A stretch of 49,802 nt of DNA from a virus (Duplodnaviria; Heunggongvirae; Uroviricota; Caudoviricetes), in IMG/VR virus record IMGVR_UViG_2541047795_000003, positions 1 to 49,802 of that record; one strand, given 5' to 3'. Positions 9,001 through 15,000 of the stretch are shown in pieces (position 1 is the first letter of the stretch; every line of letters begins with the position of its first letter). The position numbers are program-made.

Positions 9001-12000
9001 GATTTTTTAACCCGACACCCTGACGCGGTTGTGTTCAGTGCGAAAAAACGCCAGTGGGGAAGTCAGGAAGATTTGGTGTGCGCACAGTGGATCTGGGGAC
9101 GAATCGTGAGTCTTTACGAGCAGGCGGCCAGCTATGATGGCGAGATCACTAGACCGAAAGAACCCAACTGGACAGCATGGGCCAATGACGTTCGCACAAT
9201 GCGGATGCTGGATGGCAGAACTCACAGACAAATTTGTGAAATGTTTGGGCGTCTCCAGCGGGATTCGTTCTGGGTAAAAAACATCATGAGTCCGGCAAAA
9301 CTCCGGGAAAAATGGGATGAACTGGTTATCCGCCTGGGGCGTTCGCCTGCGCAGCGTTGCGTGAATCACATTTCTGAACCGGACACTGAAATTCCGCCGG
9401 GCTTCAGGGGGTAAGTGTTAATTTCTGGTCATGAGGTAATTTTCAGGAGGGCTTGTGGCAAAAGTTTTTACACAAGAAGAGCGGGAAAAAATTAAAGGGC
9501 TGATCGTGGAATTCGTACGCCTTAACGGACGAGGCACGATTCGGCAGTTATCGGATGAAATTGGTGTCAGTCATGCGTCTGTCGGTCGTTTATGCATGGA
9601 GCTGGCCGCCAGTGGTGATGTTTACAATTCCGGTTACGGAGTATTCCCGTCTGAGCAGGCGCGCAAGGACTGGCAAAACGCCCGCAAAAAACTCTCAAGG
9701 GCAAAGCTGAAGAAACCATCTGTGGTTGATCCGGACCTTATCTGGCTATTACCAGACGGCGAAATACGCCGCTACGACAGGCGTCAGAACATAATCTGTC
9801 GCGAGTGCCGGAAGAGCGAAGTTATGCAGCGCATATTGTCGTTTTATCAGGGTAATTTTCAGGAGGTAGCGCAGTGAGTGCACCGGCAACCATTCTTGAT
9901 ATGTGCTGTGGCAGCCGCATGTTCTGGTTCGATAAGAATGACGACCGGGCGATATTTAGCGATATCAGAAAGGAAGAGCACACATTATGTGATGGACGAA
10001 GACTGATAATTAGCCCTGACCTGATAGCAGATTTTCGTGCATTACCATTTGCAGACGCATCGTTTCCGGTTGTTGTATTCGACCCTCCGCATCTTGAGCG
10101 TGTTGGTGATAACGCCTGGATGGGAAAGAAATATGGACGGCTGAATAAAGATACCTGGCGTGATGATTTGCGGCAGGGATTTAAAGAAGCCTTTCGTGTG
10201 TTGCGGCCATACAGCGTTCTGATTTTTAAATGGAATGAAACGCAAATACCTGTTCGCCAGATATTGGCACTGACCGACAGAAAGCCTGTTATCGGTCAAC
10301 GAACAGGAAAGGGTGACAAGACCCACTGGATTATTTTTATGAAGGAGGCGACCAGTGAGCAAGATTGACTATCAGGCACTGCGCGAGGCGGCGGAACAGG
10401 CAACGCAAGATGAATGGGTAGCATATATTTTGCCGGGTCATAACGGCATTTATCCTGCGCGCACGTCTGAGGGTAGGCATTGTGCGGATACTTTATTGAC
10501 TGGCCTGGCGTCTGTCAGGGGCGGGAGAGCATCAACATGAGCATCAGAACCTACGCAGTGAATTGCAATGACGCATGGCTAAACACCGAAGGTGATGACA
10601 TCTCCGGCTCATACGTTAAGTACAAAGACCATCAGGAAGTGGTTGCCGCTCTTGAGGCCAAGTGCGCGGCGCTGGCGGCGGAGAATGCGGTAATAAAGTC
10701 TGCAATTCCAGAACCACGGGATATTGAGGACGACAATGACAATATGGATGACGTATCTCTTGCTGAAGATTTCGGGTTCAATCATGCAATAGAACTGATG
10801 AGGAGACGGATTCCTGAAACTCCGGCCACCGATGCTTTCCTGGCTGAAGTACGGGCGCAGGGCGTGGATACAGCTATCGAGCACCTGCATAAGAAGTTTA
10901 AAGGAACTGTGCTTGTTGGCGTCCCGGTAATGGCGTTGGAGTATTTAGCCGCAGAGCTTCGCAAAGGAGGCAACCAGTGAGCGAAATTAATTACCAGGCA
11001 CTGCGTGAGGCAGCAGAACGTGCAATTCCAGCAATGGAACGCCTGTTAATGTTGCCAACTGATGATGATTTGTTAAGTGAACAGGAACTTAAAGATTACG
11101 GTGTGGATATTGATGCGCTCAATGCCTTCAAATTTCTGACCGGACCAGAAACCGTGCTGGCACTACTGGATGAACGGGAAAGGAACCAGCAATACATCAA
11201 ACGCCGCGACCAGGAGAACGAGGATATTGCGCTAACGGTAGGGAAGCTGAGAGTTGAGCTTGAGGAAGTAAAACAACACGCTGAAGAATTATCCGAAACC
11301 AAGGCTGTTCGTAACCAATGGCGGCCAGATATTTGCCCAATAACCGGACGTGCATTTTTCATGTGGATTGAGCATCCAACATTGGGGAATGTGCCGACAT
11401 ATGGTGGCCCATTAGATAGTTACACCATTCCAACAAAGGACGGTGACGGTGAGTTTTCATGTGAGCGTTACGATCATGATTTTGGCGGTTGGGTAGAAAG
11501 CGAATGTCTTGGGTTATATCTGATTGATGATAGAGAACAATGCAGGGTCTACGAACTGGAGGAACGCGTTAAGGAACTGGATGCTCGGGAAATATCGCTC
11601 CCGGAACGTAGCAGCATGCTTCATCGAACAGATTTTCACGATGATTACCAAACGGTAATGGCATACAAAGTTTCTGAAGTCATCGCTGCAATCCGCGCCG
11701 CTGGCATTCGCATCAAAGGAGAGTGATATGGCGTTAACACACCGCGAACTCTGTCAGATTGCGTACAAGTTCCTTAAGCGCAACGGGTTCAAGGTTTGCT
11801 TTCATGACCGCTTTGTTGCTGTAACCAGTACCGGAGAACAGCCAGATGCTATGGGATTCAGAAATTCAGCATCATGCCTGATAGAGGCGAAGTGTTCTCG
11901 TGCTGACTTGTTGGCAGATAGAAAAAAGCGTTTCCGTAAAAATCCCTCACTTGGCATGGGCGACTGGCGATTCTTTATTAGTGAGCCGGAAATTATTTCA

Positions 12001-15000
12001 GTTGAGGATTTACCTCCCGGCTGGGGATTACTTCACGTTGTTAACGGAAGAGTACGGAAAGTACATGGATGGCCCAGGGGTAATTGCTGTTGGGGTAATC
12101 CTGACGATAAGCCATTTACTGGGAATAAGCAGGTTGAATGCGATTACATGTTATCTGCATTAAGGCGCATGGAGTTGAGAGGGCACCTTAATGAAATATA
12201 TGACGGTGTGATTGTTAATAAGAAAGAAGGAAACGCGGCATGATCACTATTACCAAAGGGCGACTGCTGACAATCAAGCAGTGGCGCGAAACATACGGAC
12301 CGGGTAGCAACGTTGTACTGCCAGCAGAAGAAGCGGAAGAACTGGCACGAATTGCACTGGTATCGCTGGAAGCAGAGCCGGTGGCAAAGATTATAGCTCA
12401 TTACCCATTAGGAGTTGACGTAGGCAAACAAAAGTTCGTACAGGCCATTGGAGAGCTTCCTGACTTTGGCGGATATCTATTTGCCGCCCCTCCAGCGCCG
12501 ATAGTGCCGGAAGAAGCAACTCCGGAAAACGTAGAAATGCTCTCTGGCTATGTTTCCACGTACAAATTAACCGATAGCGAGCGCGATATTGCTGCCGAAA
12601 TATGGAACGCCTGCCGCGCCGCTATGCTTCATGGGAAAGGAGAGTGATATGGCAACTTTAACAAAAAAAGAACGGGCATGGTTGAACGAATTACAGGACG
12701 TTCTTGATCGCTGCCCATCACCGAAAAAAATTGGTTTTTACACCATTGGCGATAAAAGCATTTACCTGTATGACCTGCGCCGCATGGATGAAATCATGGA
12801 GGCTCTTGATAATCGTTCGTCGATGGATTGGTGTGTTGCTGTTCATGATATGAATGCAGGGTTTGATGAAAAGATTTTGTTCCCCTCATCAGTTGAAAGC
12901 ACTGCGGGTTAAGGAGTAACACATGACCACTATTACCAAAGAACGTATTGAATTGTTCATTAAATTTTCAGGAGGCGGTACTGTGAGTGAAATTAGCTAT
13001 CAGGCTTCAATTACCGCTGGCATTCGCATCAAAGGAGAGGAGCATGGAAATAAAACCAGAGGATGAGTTAAGCAATATCGTTTTATTTCCGGTAAAAGAG
13101 GATGACCCTCGTAATCAGGTTAATTTTCTTTATGAGCCATCGGAAAGACCATATTGTCATCACGCCTCTGTCCGGGTTGACGAAAAAGAGCGTCAGGTCC
13201 GCTGTAAAATCTGCGGTGCAGTTGTGGAACCATTTGACTGGATGCTCTCTGTGGCGAAAAGAGAAACCAGACTGGCAGATGATGTAAGGCTATTGCGCCA
13301 GGAGGAACAGGAAAGGCGAAAAAATATAGAAAAGCTAATTCAGATTGAGCGTAACGCGAAAGCGCGGATACGCAGGGCGACAAAATCCAGAACTGAATAA
13401 TTAAATTTAGCTCTGTTAAAAATTTAATCCTTAACCGGAGGGATTTCTGCACCCTCAGAACATCAGGAGGCCGCCCGAAAGGGCGGTAGTTAAATGCGAA
13501 AGTTTAAAATAATTATTGAAACGGGAATAGCCGGTGGAGATTTCGAGGATGAATTCGAAGTGGATGATGATGCGACGCCTGATGAAATACATGACGAAGC
13601 AAAAGATATTTTCTTTAACTACTGCAATTACTCATATCACGAAATAAAAGACGAAGAGGAAGAGCAAAATGGCTGATTTTGGTTCAACTAAATACAACGT
13701 CAGTTTTGAAGCATGGCATGAACTGTTAATGGACTATGCAGAGTTACGTGGTGGCAGTGCTGCTGATGCTGAAGCATGGCGTGATGATTATGAAGCAGGA
13801 AAAACTCCGGTCGAAGCATATTGTGATGAGTGGGGCGATGAATGAGCGAGGTTAATTATCAGGAAGGGCATGAAACGGCGGGGCAAGCAAAAACAGTGGC
13901 ATGGCGATATCGCTACGTGAAAAAAAAGGCGTTACGGACTTTCAGGGGAAGTAGTGGTCTGGTGACTGGAAATATGTACCGAAAAAAGAGGATTGTAACG
14001 ACAGGCCGAACTATGAAATTCAGGCCTTATTCACTGCCCCGCCAGTCCCGGTTACATCAGAAGAACTGGTTAAAGCTGTGCACTTTTATGAACAACTAAA
14101 ACGCGAAAATCCACCAGCATCCGGAAACCTGATTACAGATTCCCAGATAAGGCAATGAGCTACCTGGCGCAGAACGGGCTGATAAGTATGGGGAATGTTT
14201 TACGATGAATATTTAGACTAAAGAGTTTGTAACGCTATGTAAGTGATTTTTTCTGGTTTAGATATTTATATGTCCGGCCAAATTGAGGTGTGTTTAAATG
14301 TAATTGCACATTGATTGTAGGAGGAATAATGAAAAACGCATTGCAGTTTTTGTTTGTTGCGTTCTGGTTGTTCGTATCATGTATGCCCATCATCTTCACA
14401 GCAAGGTATATGGAAAAAGTTGATGTTTTGATATTAATATTTGGATATATAAATGCCCTTTTTTTAGGGGTGTTCATGGCGGTCATGTGCATTGAATACT
14501 GGCGGTAAATACAGCGAACGCCATTGGTTTAGTTGGATATTTACTGTGCCGGACAAAAACGGTTTGCGGGGAAATCTTAGTTAAGTAGAATGACTGCGGG
14601 TGCTTGAGGCTATCTGTCTCAGGCATGAACACCAAAAGGCAGATAGAGAAAAGCCCCAGTTAACATTACGCGTCCTGCAAGACGCTTAACATTAATCTGA
14701 GGCCATATCTATGCGACACATAGAGATTAGCCTCTTACGGACCGAAAGGTCAAGGAGAAGCAGGCTATGAAGCAGCAAAAGGCGATGTTAATCGCCCTGA
14801 TCGTCATCTGTTTAACCGTCATAGTGACGGCACTGGTAACGAGGAAAGACCTCTGCGAGGTACGAATCCGAACCGGCCAGACGGAGGTCGCTGTCTTCAC
14901 AGCTTACGAACCTGAGGAGTAAGAGACCCGGCGGGGGAGAAATCCCTCGCCACCGCTGATGTGTCAGGCATCCTCAACGCACCCGCACTTAACCCGCTTC

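What the first reader, a model, noticed from the sequence alone, without database searches (positions are those of the whole stretch)
11728..12243. Unknown 171-aa protein with restriction-endonuclease-like (PD-(D/E)xK) motif arrangement
The pattern N-terminal helix (ELCQIAYKFLKRNGFKV), then GEQPDAMGF, then CLIEAKCSR reproduces the helix - GExD - ExK topology of YraN/Hjc-type PD-(D/E)xK nucleases, followed by a 100-aa C-terminal region rich in W/G/C. The prophage already encodes RusA, so this would be an additional nuclease of unknown role.
Basis: inference. Interest (0 to 1): 0.45.

Follow-up and report, generated by a model that had tools for sequence, protein, structure and literature searches.

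The report
Phage MmcB-like PD-(D/E)xK nuclease
This unannotated 171-residue prophage protein is a real, strongly conserved member of the restriction-endonuclease-like (PD-(D/E)xK) nucleases, closest to the bacterial DNA-repair protein MmcB and archaeal Holliday-junction resolvases; it is a sensible but unsurprising accessory DNA-processing enzyme.

Summary
No Pfam, NCBIfam or PADLOC model hits the protein, and PHROGs list it as 'unknown function'. It belongs to a large family: 2,559 clusters at 50% identity. In 86 divergent members the catalytic set is essentially invariant: acidic residue 27, E37, D40, E53 and K55. An AlphaFold model (pLDDT 95) has the alpha-beta-beta-beta-alpha-beta core, with D40 at the start of strand 2 and E53/K55 on strand 3. 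Its best solved match is 3dnx/SPO1766, a Pfam MmcB-like protein (Foldseek E 3e-6, TM 0.58-0.66, near full length). Profile-profile comparison with true MmcB proteins gives 97.9% probability (E 4e-13). The 'W/G/C-rich C-terminal region' is the rest of that fold, not an extra domain. Phage copies always lie in early replication/recombination modules. Terriglobales carry a chromosomal copy next to dnaX-ybaB-recR. The most likely function is a metal-dependent, structure- or damage-specific DNA endonuclease made early after prophage derepression; the substrate is only inferred. It is a divergent new member of a known kind, of modest interest.

The parts
11716..11721 (+). Shine-Dalgarno AAGGAG, 6 nt before the ATG. 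It lies inside the end of the upstream Ead/Ea22-like gene, whose stop is at 11724-11726.
   Evidence: Read directly from the sequence.
11728..12243 (+). Coding sequence of the 171-aa MmcB-like PD-(D/E)xK nuclease homologue (= phage P7 Upf89.0). A single domain covers residues ~4-160; the tail 161-171 is predicted disordered.
   Evidence: ORF. P7 identity. 2,559 family representatives. AF2 model pLDDT 95.4. 3dnx match. hhalign to MmcB 97.9%.
11740..11781 (+). Helix alpha-1 (residues 5-18), carrying near-invariant H5 and L8.
   Evidence: Model secondary structure. H5 kept in 84 of 86, L8 in 82 of 86.
11806..11808 (+). D27, at the end of strand beta-1. It is D or E in 84 of 86 members and aligns with the invariant EE of MmcB, so it is a candidate first metal ligand.
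   Evidence: The metal-ligand role is inferred.
11833..11847 (+). G-E-Q-P-D (residues 36-40): the 'PD' motif at the start of strand beta-2. D40 is invariant. E37 is a family-specific conserved acid that MmcB lacks.
   Evidence: D40 86/86, E37 85/86, P39 82/86. PD aligns to Hjc P41-D42.
11881..11892 (+). I-E-A-K (residues 52-55): the '(D/E)xK' motif at the end of strand beta-3.
   Evidence: E53 85/86, K55 85/86. Aligns to Hjc E55-x-K57 and to MmcB E53-C-K55.
11896..11937 (+). S-R-A-D-L-L-A-D-R-K-K-R-F-R (residues 57-70): helix alpha-2 with the SRxDFxxDxK signature shared with MmcB, followed by a family-specific basic KKxFR extension.
   Evidence: D60 86/86, D64 85/86, K67 85/86, R70 85/86. Aligned to 3dnx SSRADFQADAK.
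11953..11970 (+). G-M-G-D-W-R (residues 76-81) leading into strand beta-4. G78 and R81 are invariant, and R81 aligns with the invariant R of MmcB 'CDRYFW'.
12013..12033 (+). P-P-G-W-G-L-L (residues 96-102), entering strand beta-5. The P..GL pattern is shared with MmcB.
   Evidence: P96 83/86, W99 85/86, G100 83/86, L101 85/86. hhalign.
12127..12177 (+). C-terminal helix (residues 134-150) with E137 and the R146-R147 pair, a likely DNA-contact or packing helix. MmcB has a comparable AARRL helix.
   Evidence: Model. E137 85/86, R146 82/86, R147 80/86. MmcB consensus. The DNA-contact role is inferred.
12240..12243 (+). ATGA overlap of this gene's stop codon with the start of the next ORF (12240..12647), which indicates translational coupling within the operon.
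   Evidence: Sequence.
10977..11726 (+). Context: the upstream Ead/Ea22-like gene, the constant partner of this gene in enterobacterial phages (cassette Ead/Ea22 - nuclease - DUF551-type gene).
   Evidence: Pfam Ead_Ea22 E 3e-29. The same order is seen in P7 and in Shigella phage Ss-VASD.

Best explanation
The gene encodes a small single-domain PD-(D/E)xK enzyme. It belongs to a large, so far unmodelled sister branch of the MmcB-like (DUF1052) / archaeal Holliday-junction-resolvase group. SHOWN: the fold; the homology to MmcB-like proteins; near-invariance of the catalytic constellation (acidic residue 27, E37, D40, E53, K55); a shared SRxDFxxDxK helix; and constant placement among phage replication/recombination genes. 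INFERRED: D27, D40 and E53 (perhaps with E37) hold one or two Mg2+ ions and K55 positions the attacking water. The basic residues (R58, K66/K67, R70, R81, R146/R147) grip the DNA backbone. The enzyme cuts DNA by structure, not by sequence: branched, stalled-fork, flap or crosslink-distorted DNA. It is translated from the rightward early operon once the prophage is derepressed, and it helps the phage copy or recombine a template that may itself be damaged. This parallels cellular MmcB, which is SOS-induced and protects against mitomycin C and cisplatin. My sub-confidences are: PD-(D/E)xK fold and MmcB-like homology about 0.95; active nuclease on DNA about 0.75; repair or branched-intermediate processing role about 0.45.
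For: Intact, translationally coupled ORF with a Shine-Dalgarno. Family of 2,559 clusters at 50% identity, 1,246 of them at E<=1e-10. Catalytic residues kept in 84-86 of 86 sequences down to 33% identity. AF2 model pLDDT 95.4 / pTM 0.88 with order alpha-beta-beta-beta-alpha-beta-beta-beta-alpha. Foldseek versus PDB: 3dnx E 3.4e-6, probability 1.0, TM 0.58/0.66 over 168 columns; the weaker hits are R2 endonuclease, Hjc, AF1548, Bax1, XisH and HincII, all PD-(D/E)xK. 3dnx is PF06319 MmcB-like. The family profile hits the 3dnx sequence at E 1.8e-4 and Hjc with PD/ExK in register. hhalign against 28 MmcB proteins: 97.9%, E 4.1e-13, 99 columns. The viral structure library returns 17 phage proteins at E<1e-3, several named MmcB family DNA repair protein. 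Contexts: directly after NinB in a Chromohalobacter prophage; after the replication gene and near YbcO in Microbulbifer; among exonucleases, RusA-like, Dam and SSB in Vibrio phage X29; immediately upstream of DNA primase in Ackermannviridae; downstream of gam-recT-exo-ssb in Stx-type phage Ss-VASD. Neighbours in 21 other mobile elements (23 loci chosen, 2 skipped by the ORF caller) include methylases, SSB, RdgC and DnaB. About 20 Terriglobales genomes carry a chromosomal copy convergent with dnaX-ybaB-recR. MmcB biology is taken from PMC9578287, and the DUF1052-AHJR relationship from PMC1189080 and PMC3424549.
Against: There are no biochemical or genetic data for any member of this branch in the libraries searched. 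In the papers I could read, MmcB's own substrate is hypothesised, not measured. The window protein fails every curated model (Pfam, NCBIfam), so function cannot simply be transferred from MmcB. The prophage already has RusA and a DUF968/HNH protein, so an essential resolvase role is unlikely. The dnaX-recR adjacency in Terriglobales is convergent, not co-operonic, so it is only weak functional evidence. The position in the operon is a mobile cassette (pR side here, pL side in Stx phages, an accessory island in P7), which is typical of non-essential 'moron-like' genes whose roles can be unrelated to their neighbours.
Confidence: 0.6

Rival explanations
1. It is a true Holliday-junction resolvase of the Hjc type. 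A dimer makes paired nicks across four-way junctions, acting as a second resolvase alongside RusA or as a replacement for it in phages that lack RusA/Rap.
For: The PD and ExK motifs align in register with Hjc D42/E55/K57. 23 of 46 divergent members hit Pfam Hjc and one passes its cut-off. The Microbulbifer and Chromohalobacter prophage stretches examined show no RusA or NinG hit. The gene directly follows NinB/Orf in one prophage.
Against: Structural similarity to solved Hjc/Hje is weak (TM 0.27-0.37, E 0.02-0.5), compared with TM about 0.6 to MmcB-like 3dnx. The gene co-occurs with RusA in this window and in Vibrio phage X29. Only about 7 kb on each side was examined in the prophages that seemed to lack RusA. 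Dimerisation was not tested.
Confidence: 0.15
2. It is a conflict nuclease, not a repair enzyme. It would degrade host or competitor DNA (host takeover, superinfection exclusion) or act as the cutting half of a restriction-modification-like or anti-restriction module together with the methyltransferases often encoded nearby.
For: PD-(D/E)xK is the classic restriction-enzyme fold. A SAM-dependent methyltransferase lies two genes upstream (9874..10368). Dam or other methylases are near the gene in X29, Ss-VASD and the Chromohalobacter prophage, and 6 of 109 neighbour proteins are DNA methylases. The gene sits in variable accessory cassettes, as many phage conflict genes do.
Against: No PADLOC defence model matches. 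The methylases belong to different families and are not adjacent or consistently oriented. The protein is a bare 145-170-aa catalytic domain with no specificity domain. Its sequence is highly conserved across phyla, unlike fast-evolving conflict genes. The Terriglobales chromosomal copies sit in housekeeping synteny, where the recurrent neighbour clusters I annotated (DnaX, RecR, YbaB, CHAD/Ppx-GppA) include no methylase.
Confidence: 0.15
3. It is a catalytically silent DNA-binding or scaffold protein that has kept the nuclease fold, for example a regulator or a partner of the Ead/Ea22-like and DUF551 proteins.
For: The constant cassette with Ead/Ea22-like and DUF551-type genes could reflect a protein complex. 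One family member (P0156) has lost E53 and K55.
Against: All four or five catalytic positions are preserved in 84-86 of 86 sequences across phyla, which is hard to explain without catalysis. The Ead/DUF551 partnership is absent outside enterobacterial and vibrio phages.
Confidence: 0.05

Closest known systems
MmcB-like family (Pfam PF06319 / DUF1052 / COG5321). Its structural representative is SPO1766 (PDB 3dnx). Caulobacter MmcB is the only member with genetics.
   Same: Single-domain PD-(D/E)xK protein of about 150 aa. Same fold over nearly the full length (TM 0.58-0.66). Profile-profile probability 97.9%. Shared motifs: acidic residue after beta-1, D on beta-2, ECK on beta-3, SRxDFxxDxK helix, R on beta-4, P..GL, and a C-terminal RR helix.
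   Different: The window protein does not reach the Pfam or NCBIfam model at all, and the best distant member scores 21.0 against a cut-off of 22. It has E37 in 'GExPD' where MmcB has 'GLRVD', a 7-residue basic insert (KKxFRxxPxxGMG), and a different stretch between strand 6 and the last helix. It is mainly carried by phages and prophages of many phyla, plus Terriglobales chromosomes, whereas MmcB is mostly alphaproteobacterial (PMC3424549). SOS control and crosslink resistance are untested here.
Archaeal Holliday-junction resolvase Hjc (Pfam PF01870; PDB 1hh1, 2eo0, 4tkd).
   Same: Same superfamily branch (AHJR-like). The spacing D-13-E-x-K is identical to Hjc D42/E55/K57, aligned in register. 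Half of the divergent members give sub-threshold Hjc hits.
   Different: Only the alpha1-beta3 core aligns. Structural scores are weak. Everything after beta-3 follows MmcB, not Hjc. Junction resolution is not shown.
YraN / UPF0102 (Pfam PF02021).
   Same: A small bacterial AHJR-like PD-(D/E)xK protein. One distant family member scores 22.7 bits against a cut-off of 23.6.
   Different: Only 2 of 46 members give any hit, and the window protein gives none. YraN lacks the SRxDFxxDxK helix signature.
RusA (Pfam PF05866), encoded in the same prophage at 16426..16806.
   Same: A phage-borne structure-specific DNA endonuclease expressed from the same early/delayed-early transcription unit, so it is a possible functional neighbour.
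   Different: Unrelated fold and catalytic chemistry. Its presence argues that the MmcB-like protein has a different substrate or role and is not a duplicate resolvase.

Membership tests
PD-(D/E)xK phosphodiesterase superfamily | Alpha-beta-beta-beta-alpha-beta core fold | tested here: met
   The AF2 model (pLDDT 95.4) has H5-18, E23-26, E41-45, E48-54, H58-65, E80-85. The PDB matches are almost exclusively PD-(D/E)xK nucleases.
PD-(D/E)xK phosphodiesterase superfamily | Conserved D ... (D/E)xK on strands 2 and 3 | tested here: met
   D40 86/86, E53 85/86, K55 85/86. D40 precedes strand 41-45, and E53/K55 end strand 48-54.
PD-(D/E)xK phosphodiesterase superfamily | Metal-dependent phosphodiester cleavage | not testable with these tools
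   Needs biochemistry.
MmcB-like (PF06319 / NCBIfam MmcB family DNA repair protein) | Scores above the curated model cut-off | tested here: not met
   No Pfam or NCBIfam hit for the window protein even at E<=10. 15 of 46 divergent members hit PF06319 below threshold, the best at 21.0 bits against 22.
MmcB-like (PF06319 / NCBIfam MmcB family DNA repair protein) | Demonstrable homology at profile level | tested here: met
   hhalign of A3 against 28 PF06319 proteins: probability 97.9%, E 4.1e-13, 99 columns. The family HMM hits the 3dnx sequence at E 1.8e-4.
MmcB-like (PF06319 / NCBIfam MmcB family DNA repair protein) | Same three-dimensional fold as the family's solved structure (3dnx) | tested here: met
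   Foldseek E 3.4e-6, probability 1.0, TM 0.58/0.66, 168 columns, 24% identity. 3dnx confirmed as PF06319.
MmcB-like (PF06319 / NCBIfam MmcB family DNA repair protein) | SOS-regulated gene that confers resistance to crosslinking agents (the Caulobacter MmcB phenotype) | not testable with these tools
   Known for MmcB from PMC9578287. Here the gene sits in a prophage early operon, and no phenotype data exist.
Archaeal Holliday-junction resolvase Hjc (PF01870) | Scores above the Pfam cut-off | tested here: not met
   The window protein gives no hit. Of 10 distant members scanned individually, one reaches 22.3 against 21.1 and the others are below.
Archaeal Holliday-junction resolvase Hjc (PF01870) | Catalytic residues equivalent to D42, E55, K57 | tested here: met
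   The HMM alignment places PD on P41-D42 and ExK on E55-M-K57 of 1hh1.
Archaeal Holliday-junction resolvase Hjc (PF01870) | Whole-domain structural match and dimeric junction cleavage | tested here: inconclusive
   The Foldseek hits to Hjc/Hje are only weak (TM 0.27-0.37). Dimer formation and activity were not testable.
YraN / UPF0102 (PF02021) | Scores above the Pfam cut-off | tested here: not met
   No hit for the window protein. 2 of 46 members hit weakly, the best at 22.7 against 23.6.
Type II restriction endonuclease / R-M module | Adjacent cognate methyltransferase conserved across homologues | tested here: not met
   Methylases are frequent but non-adjacent and belong to different families. 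None appears among the recurrent, annotated neighbour clusters of the Terriglobales copies.
Known anti-phage defence systems (PADLOC-DB) | Match to a defence-system protein model | tested here: not met
   0 families at E<=1.

The most novel reading that the evidence does not exclude
This is a distinct, widespread and so far unnamed sister family of MmcB. Temperate and virulent phages would carry it as their own damage- or crosslink-processing endonuclease, so a prophage woken by DNA damage can replicate a template that carries the same lesions. Terriglobales would have fixed it as a housekeeping repair gene beside dnaX-recR. If so, it would give a tractable E. coli phage model for the still undefined biochemistry of MmcB-type repair.
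Probability: 0.25. Interest if true: 0.5.

Novelty: new member of a known kind. Interest (0 to 1): 0.3.

Why it matters
The gene is present in 931 of 5,426 complete E. coli genomes, including Stx-converting phages and the O104:H4 lineage, and in phage P7. Yet it is annotated only as 'hypothetical', as a 'frameshifted' pseudogene, or wrongly as a tail protein. Placing it as an MmcB-like nuclease gives a testable function to a very common prophage gene. It also defines a family of more than 2,500 sequence clusters that no curated model covers, and it offers an easy genetic system (lambdoid prophages) for working out what MmcB-type nucleases cut. It does not reveal a new mechanism: a specialist running HHpred would reach the same assignment.

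Tried and rejected
(1) Direct scans of the protein against Pfam, NCBIfam, PADLOC and PDB sequences found nothing significant.
(2) The first AF2 model, from a shallow alignment (37 close homologues, pLDDT 80), gave only weak Foldseek hits (best E 0.05). A deeper alignment was needed.
(4) The search for related loci with the 86-sequence alignment failed because it had no conserved block. With the close alignment it returned only near-identical E. coli prophages, which were uninformative.
(5) The original MmcB paper (DNA Repair 2015) is not held. Literature searches for Upf89.0, the PHROG ids and phage MmcB-like proteins found only annotation mentions.
(6) I rejected the idea of a Cas4/RecB-like Fe-S nuclease, because C9, C50, C56 and C138 are not conserved in distant members.
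(7) I rejected the idea of a separate C-terminal domain, because 3dnx aligns over 168 columns and the model is one compact domain.
(8) I asked whether the prophage repressor is an S24, SOS-cleavable type. The candidate at 7222..7638 (-) has no Pfam hit, so SOS-linked expression in this prophage stays an inference.
(9) My naive ORF caller failed to recover the target gene in 13 of 80 GC-rich loci, so the neighbour counts are lower bounds.

Full report
OBSERVATION. The window holds an intact ORF at 11728..12243 on the + strand, encoding 171 aa. An AAGGAG ribosome-binding site ends 6 nt before the ATG. The upstream gene stops at 11726, and the ORF's TGA overlaps the ATG of the next ORF (ATGA at 12240-12243). 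So the gene is a translationally coupled member of a rightward operon. The same prophage encodes RusA at 16426..16806, and a DUF968/HNH protein just before it.

WHAT THE DATABASES CALL IT. They call it nothing useful. There is no Pfam, NCBIfam or PADLOC hit, even at permissive thresholds, and no significant PDB sequence hit for the single sequence. It matches PHROGs 9263 and 631, both 'unknown function', and weakly matches phrog_5429 'DNA repair protein'. It is 97.7% identical to phage P7 Upf89.0, which RefSeq labels 'minor tail protein'. That label has no support in its context. It occurs in 931 of 5,426 complete E. coli genomes, always as 'hypothetical protein'. In an O104:H4-type genome that is 100% identical to the window, PGAP annotates it as a 'frameshifted' pseudogene although the frame is open.

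FAMILY AND CONSERVATION. An exhaustive phmmer search finds 2,559 cluster representatives at 50% identity with E<=1e-3, of which 1,246 have E<=1e-10. In an 86-sequence alignment reaching 33% identity, the invariant or near-invariant positions are H5, an acidic residue at 27 (84/86), E37 (85), P39, D40 (86), E53 (85), K55 (85), S57, R58, D60 (86), D64, K67, R70, G76, G78, R81 (86), P96, W99-G100-L101, E137 (85) and R146-R147. That rules out an Fe-S (Cas4-like) site.

SEQUENCE-LEVEL HOMOLOGY. A profile of divergent members hits the 3dnx sequence at E 1.8e-4, and hits Sulfolobus Hjc weakly. In that Hjc alignment the family's PD and ExK fall on Hjc P41-D42 and E55-x-K57. Of 46 divergent members scanned one by one, 23 hit Pfam Hjc, 15 hit MmcB-like, 5 hit AHJR-like and 2 hit UPF0102/YraN. 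The best scores straddle the curated cut-offs: Hjc 22.3 against 21.1, MmcB-like 21.0 against 22, UPF0102 22.7 against 23.6. I collected genuine MmcB proteins and aligned 28 of them. A profile-profile comparison then gave 97.9% probability and E 4.1e-13 over 99 columns, covering query residues 8-117. The following elements are aligned: the acidic residue after strand 1, D40, E53-x-K55, the SRxDFxxDxK helix, R81 and P96..G100-L101. Three features are specific to the phage-type branch: E37 ('GExPD' where MmcB has 'GLRVD'), a basic 7-residue insert (KKxFRxxPxxGMG), and the segment before the last helix. Published analyses had already placed DUF1052 among PD-(D/E)xK nucleases related to archaeal junction resolvases (PMC1189080, PMC3424549). 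Caulobacter MmcB is described as an SOS-induced endonuclease protecting against mitomycin C and cisplatin (PMC9578287).

CONTEXT IN THE WINDOW. The prophage is Rac-like or lambdoid. Its gene order is: repressor/YdaS/YdaT immunity region, an HTH_36 replication-type gene (8437..9414), DUF977, a SAM methyltransferase, two Ead/Ea22-like genes, the nuclease, two unknown ORFs, a zinc-ribbon ORF, hokD, DUF968/HNH, RusA and the antiterminator. The only + strand promoter-like site in 7000-14500 is at 7686-7713, before the cro-like gene. No convincing terminator lies between it and the nuclease gene. So I infer expression from the rightward early operon.

CONTEXT ELSEWHERE. In Stx-type phages the same cassette (Ead/Ea22, then the nuclease, then a DUF551-type gene) lies in the leftward early operon, after kil-gam-recT-exo-ssb and before xis-int. 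In P7 it lies in an accessory island after a primase-like gene. In a Chromohalobacter prophage the gene directly follows NinB/Orf and precedes Dam and DUF968. In Microbulbifer it follows the replication gene and lies two genes before YbcO. In Vibrio phage X29 it sits among O/DnaC-like genes, two exonucleases, DUF551, DUF1064, RusA-like, Dam and SSB. In virulent Ackermannviridae a 205-aa homologue overlaps the start of the DNA primase gene. In Vibrio Mardecavirus it lies a few genes after a flap endonuclease.

GENOME-WIDE SCAN. A scan of one genome per species found 426 confirmed relatives. The window protein itself hits all of the best 80 loci by tblastn (31-59% identity), and 78 of them keep the full motif. 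For 21 loci outside Acidobacteria (23 chosen, 2 skipped by the ORF caller), the annotated neighbours are DNA methylases (6), DUF5131, PAPS reductase, SSB, RdgC, DnaB, DUF3987, integrase, DUF551 and MobA. These are typical of mobile-element DNA metabolism, with no structural, lysis or recognised defence genes. About 55 of the 80 loci are Acidobacteriota chromosomes with a uniform 144-aa copy (35% identical to the window protein, E 9e-25). In about 20 of them the gene is convergent with the housekeeping dnaX-ybaB-recR operon, and in 15 it is preceded by a CHAD/Ppx-GppA gene. So the family also has a stably inherited cellular form.

MECHANISM. Shown: the fold, homology to MmcB-like/AHJR nucleases, conservation of a complete catalytic set, and constant association with replication and recombination genes. 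Inferred: a Mg2+-dependent endonuclease in which the acidic residues at 27, 40 and 53 (perhaps also 37) bind metal, K55 activates water, and the conserved basic residues bind the backbone. It would recognise DNA structure or distortion, not sequence, because it has no specificity domain and its nearest relatives are junction or repair nucleases. It would be made early after derepression or infection, to process branched, stalled or damaged replication and recombination intermediates. Rivals are a true Hjc-type junction resolvase (0.15), a conflict or R-M-like nuclease (0.15), and a catalytically silent DNA binder (0.05). None can be excluded without experiments.

MEMBERSHIP AND NOVELTY. The protein is a member of the PD-(D/E)xK superfamily: both the fold and the motif tests are met. 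It is homologous to the MmcB-like family and shares its fold, but it fails the curated Pfam and NCBIfam models. It is best described as a divergent, unmodelled sister branch, not as a member of PF06319 as currently defined. It is not a member of Hjc or YraN by their thresholds. That makes it a new member of a known kind. Interest is modest. The assignment is what a remote-homology search would give. The value lies in annotating a very common Stx-phage and prophage gene, and in offering a tractable system for MmcB-type nucleases.

Noticed in passing
window 11728..12243; L002 9001-9179: In RefSeq genome NZ_CP041002.1, which is 100% identical over the gene, PGAP annotates only the first 179 nt as a 'frameshifted' hypothetical pseudogene, although the 171-codon frame is open. 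Truncated 58-aa and 111-aa versions exist as protein clusters (phrog_16308, P0051) and may mislead the pipeline.
   Followed up: partly
L001 4572-5087 (phage P7 upf89.0): RefSeq calls the P7 orthologue (97.7% identical) 'minor tail protein'. Other records label homologues 'adenylosuccinate synthase', 'structural protein' or 'valyl-tRNA synthetase'. These look like annotation errors. One record (Salmonella phage vB_CECAV_050) says 'DNA repair protein'.
   Followed up: partly
window 12240..12647 and 12649..12912: The ORF that overlaps the nuclease's stop codon has no Pfam hit. PGAP treats its first 135 nt as an incomplete gene lacking its C-terminus. In P7 and Ss-VASD the corresponding gene is much longer (Upf89.5, 432 aa; a DUF551 protein, 309 aa). 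So the window copy looks like a truncated remnant.
   Followed up: partly
L103-L170, match at about 6001-6432 (e.g. L121): Dozens of Terriglobales (Acidobacteriota) chromosomes carry a uniform 144-aa homologue at a syntenic site. It is convergent with dnaX-ybaB-recR and downstream of a CHAD/Ppx-GppA gene, which points to a cellular, vertically inherited form of this otherwise phage-borne family.
   Followed up: yes
protein P0143 (428 aa): One family representative carries the nuclease domain at its C-terminus, fused to an N-terminal TniB/AAA_22-like ATPase region (Pfam TniB E 3e-6). The pairing recalls a transposition-type ATPase with a PD-(D/E)xK nuclease. P0221, P0255 and P0256 instead have C-terminal extensions.
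   Followed up: no
window 10480..10980 and 10977..11726: Two tandem Ead/Ea22-like genes precede the nuclease. The Ead/Ea22 - nuclease - DUF551 cassette is found on the pR side here, on the pL side in Stx-type phages, and in an accessory island of plasmid-prophage P7, so it moves as a unit.
   Followed up: partly
window 7645..7713: Back-to-back promoter-like sites lie between a repressor-like gene (7222..7638, -, no Pfam hit) and a YdaS/Cro-like gene (7739..8020, +), which is followed by a YdaT-like gene. This is a Rac-type immunity region, and no S24 peptidase domain was detected in the repressor candidate.
   Followed up: partly
window 1422..3914 (-) and 4393..5247 (-): An 830-aa protein has a C-terminal Rv2179c-like 3'-5' exoribonuclease domain (PGAP calls it 'exonuclease'). 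A Rha/Ash-family regulator lies on the leftward side. According to the annotation of an identical genome, the prophage also carries relBE, dicB and hokD.
   Followed up: no
window 9874..10368: A 164-aa ORF that PGAP annotates as a class I SAM-dependent methyltransferase gets no Pfam hit at E<=1e-3. DNA methylases of several families recur near homologues of the nuclease in other phages.
   Followed up: partly
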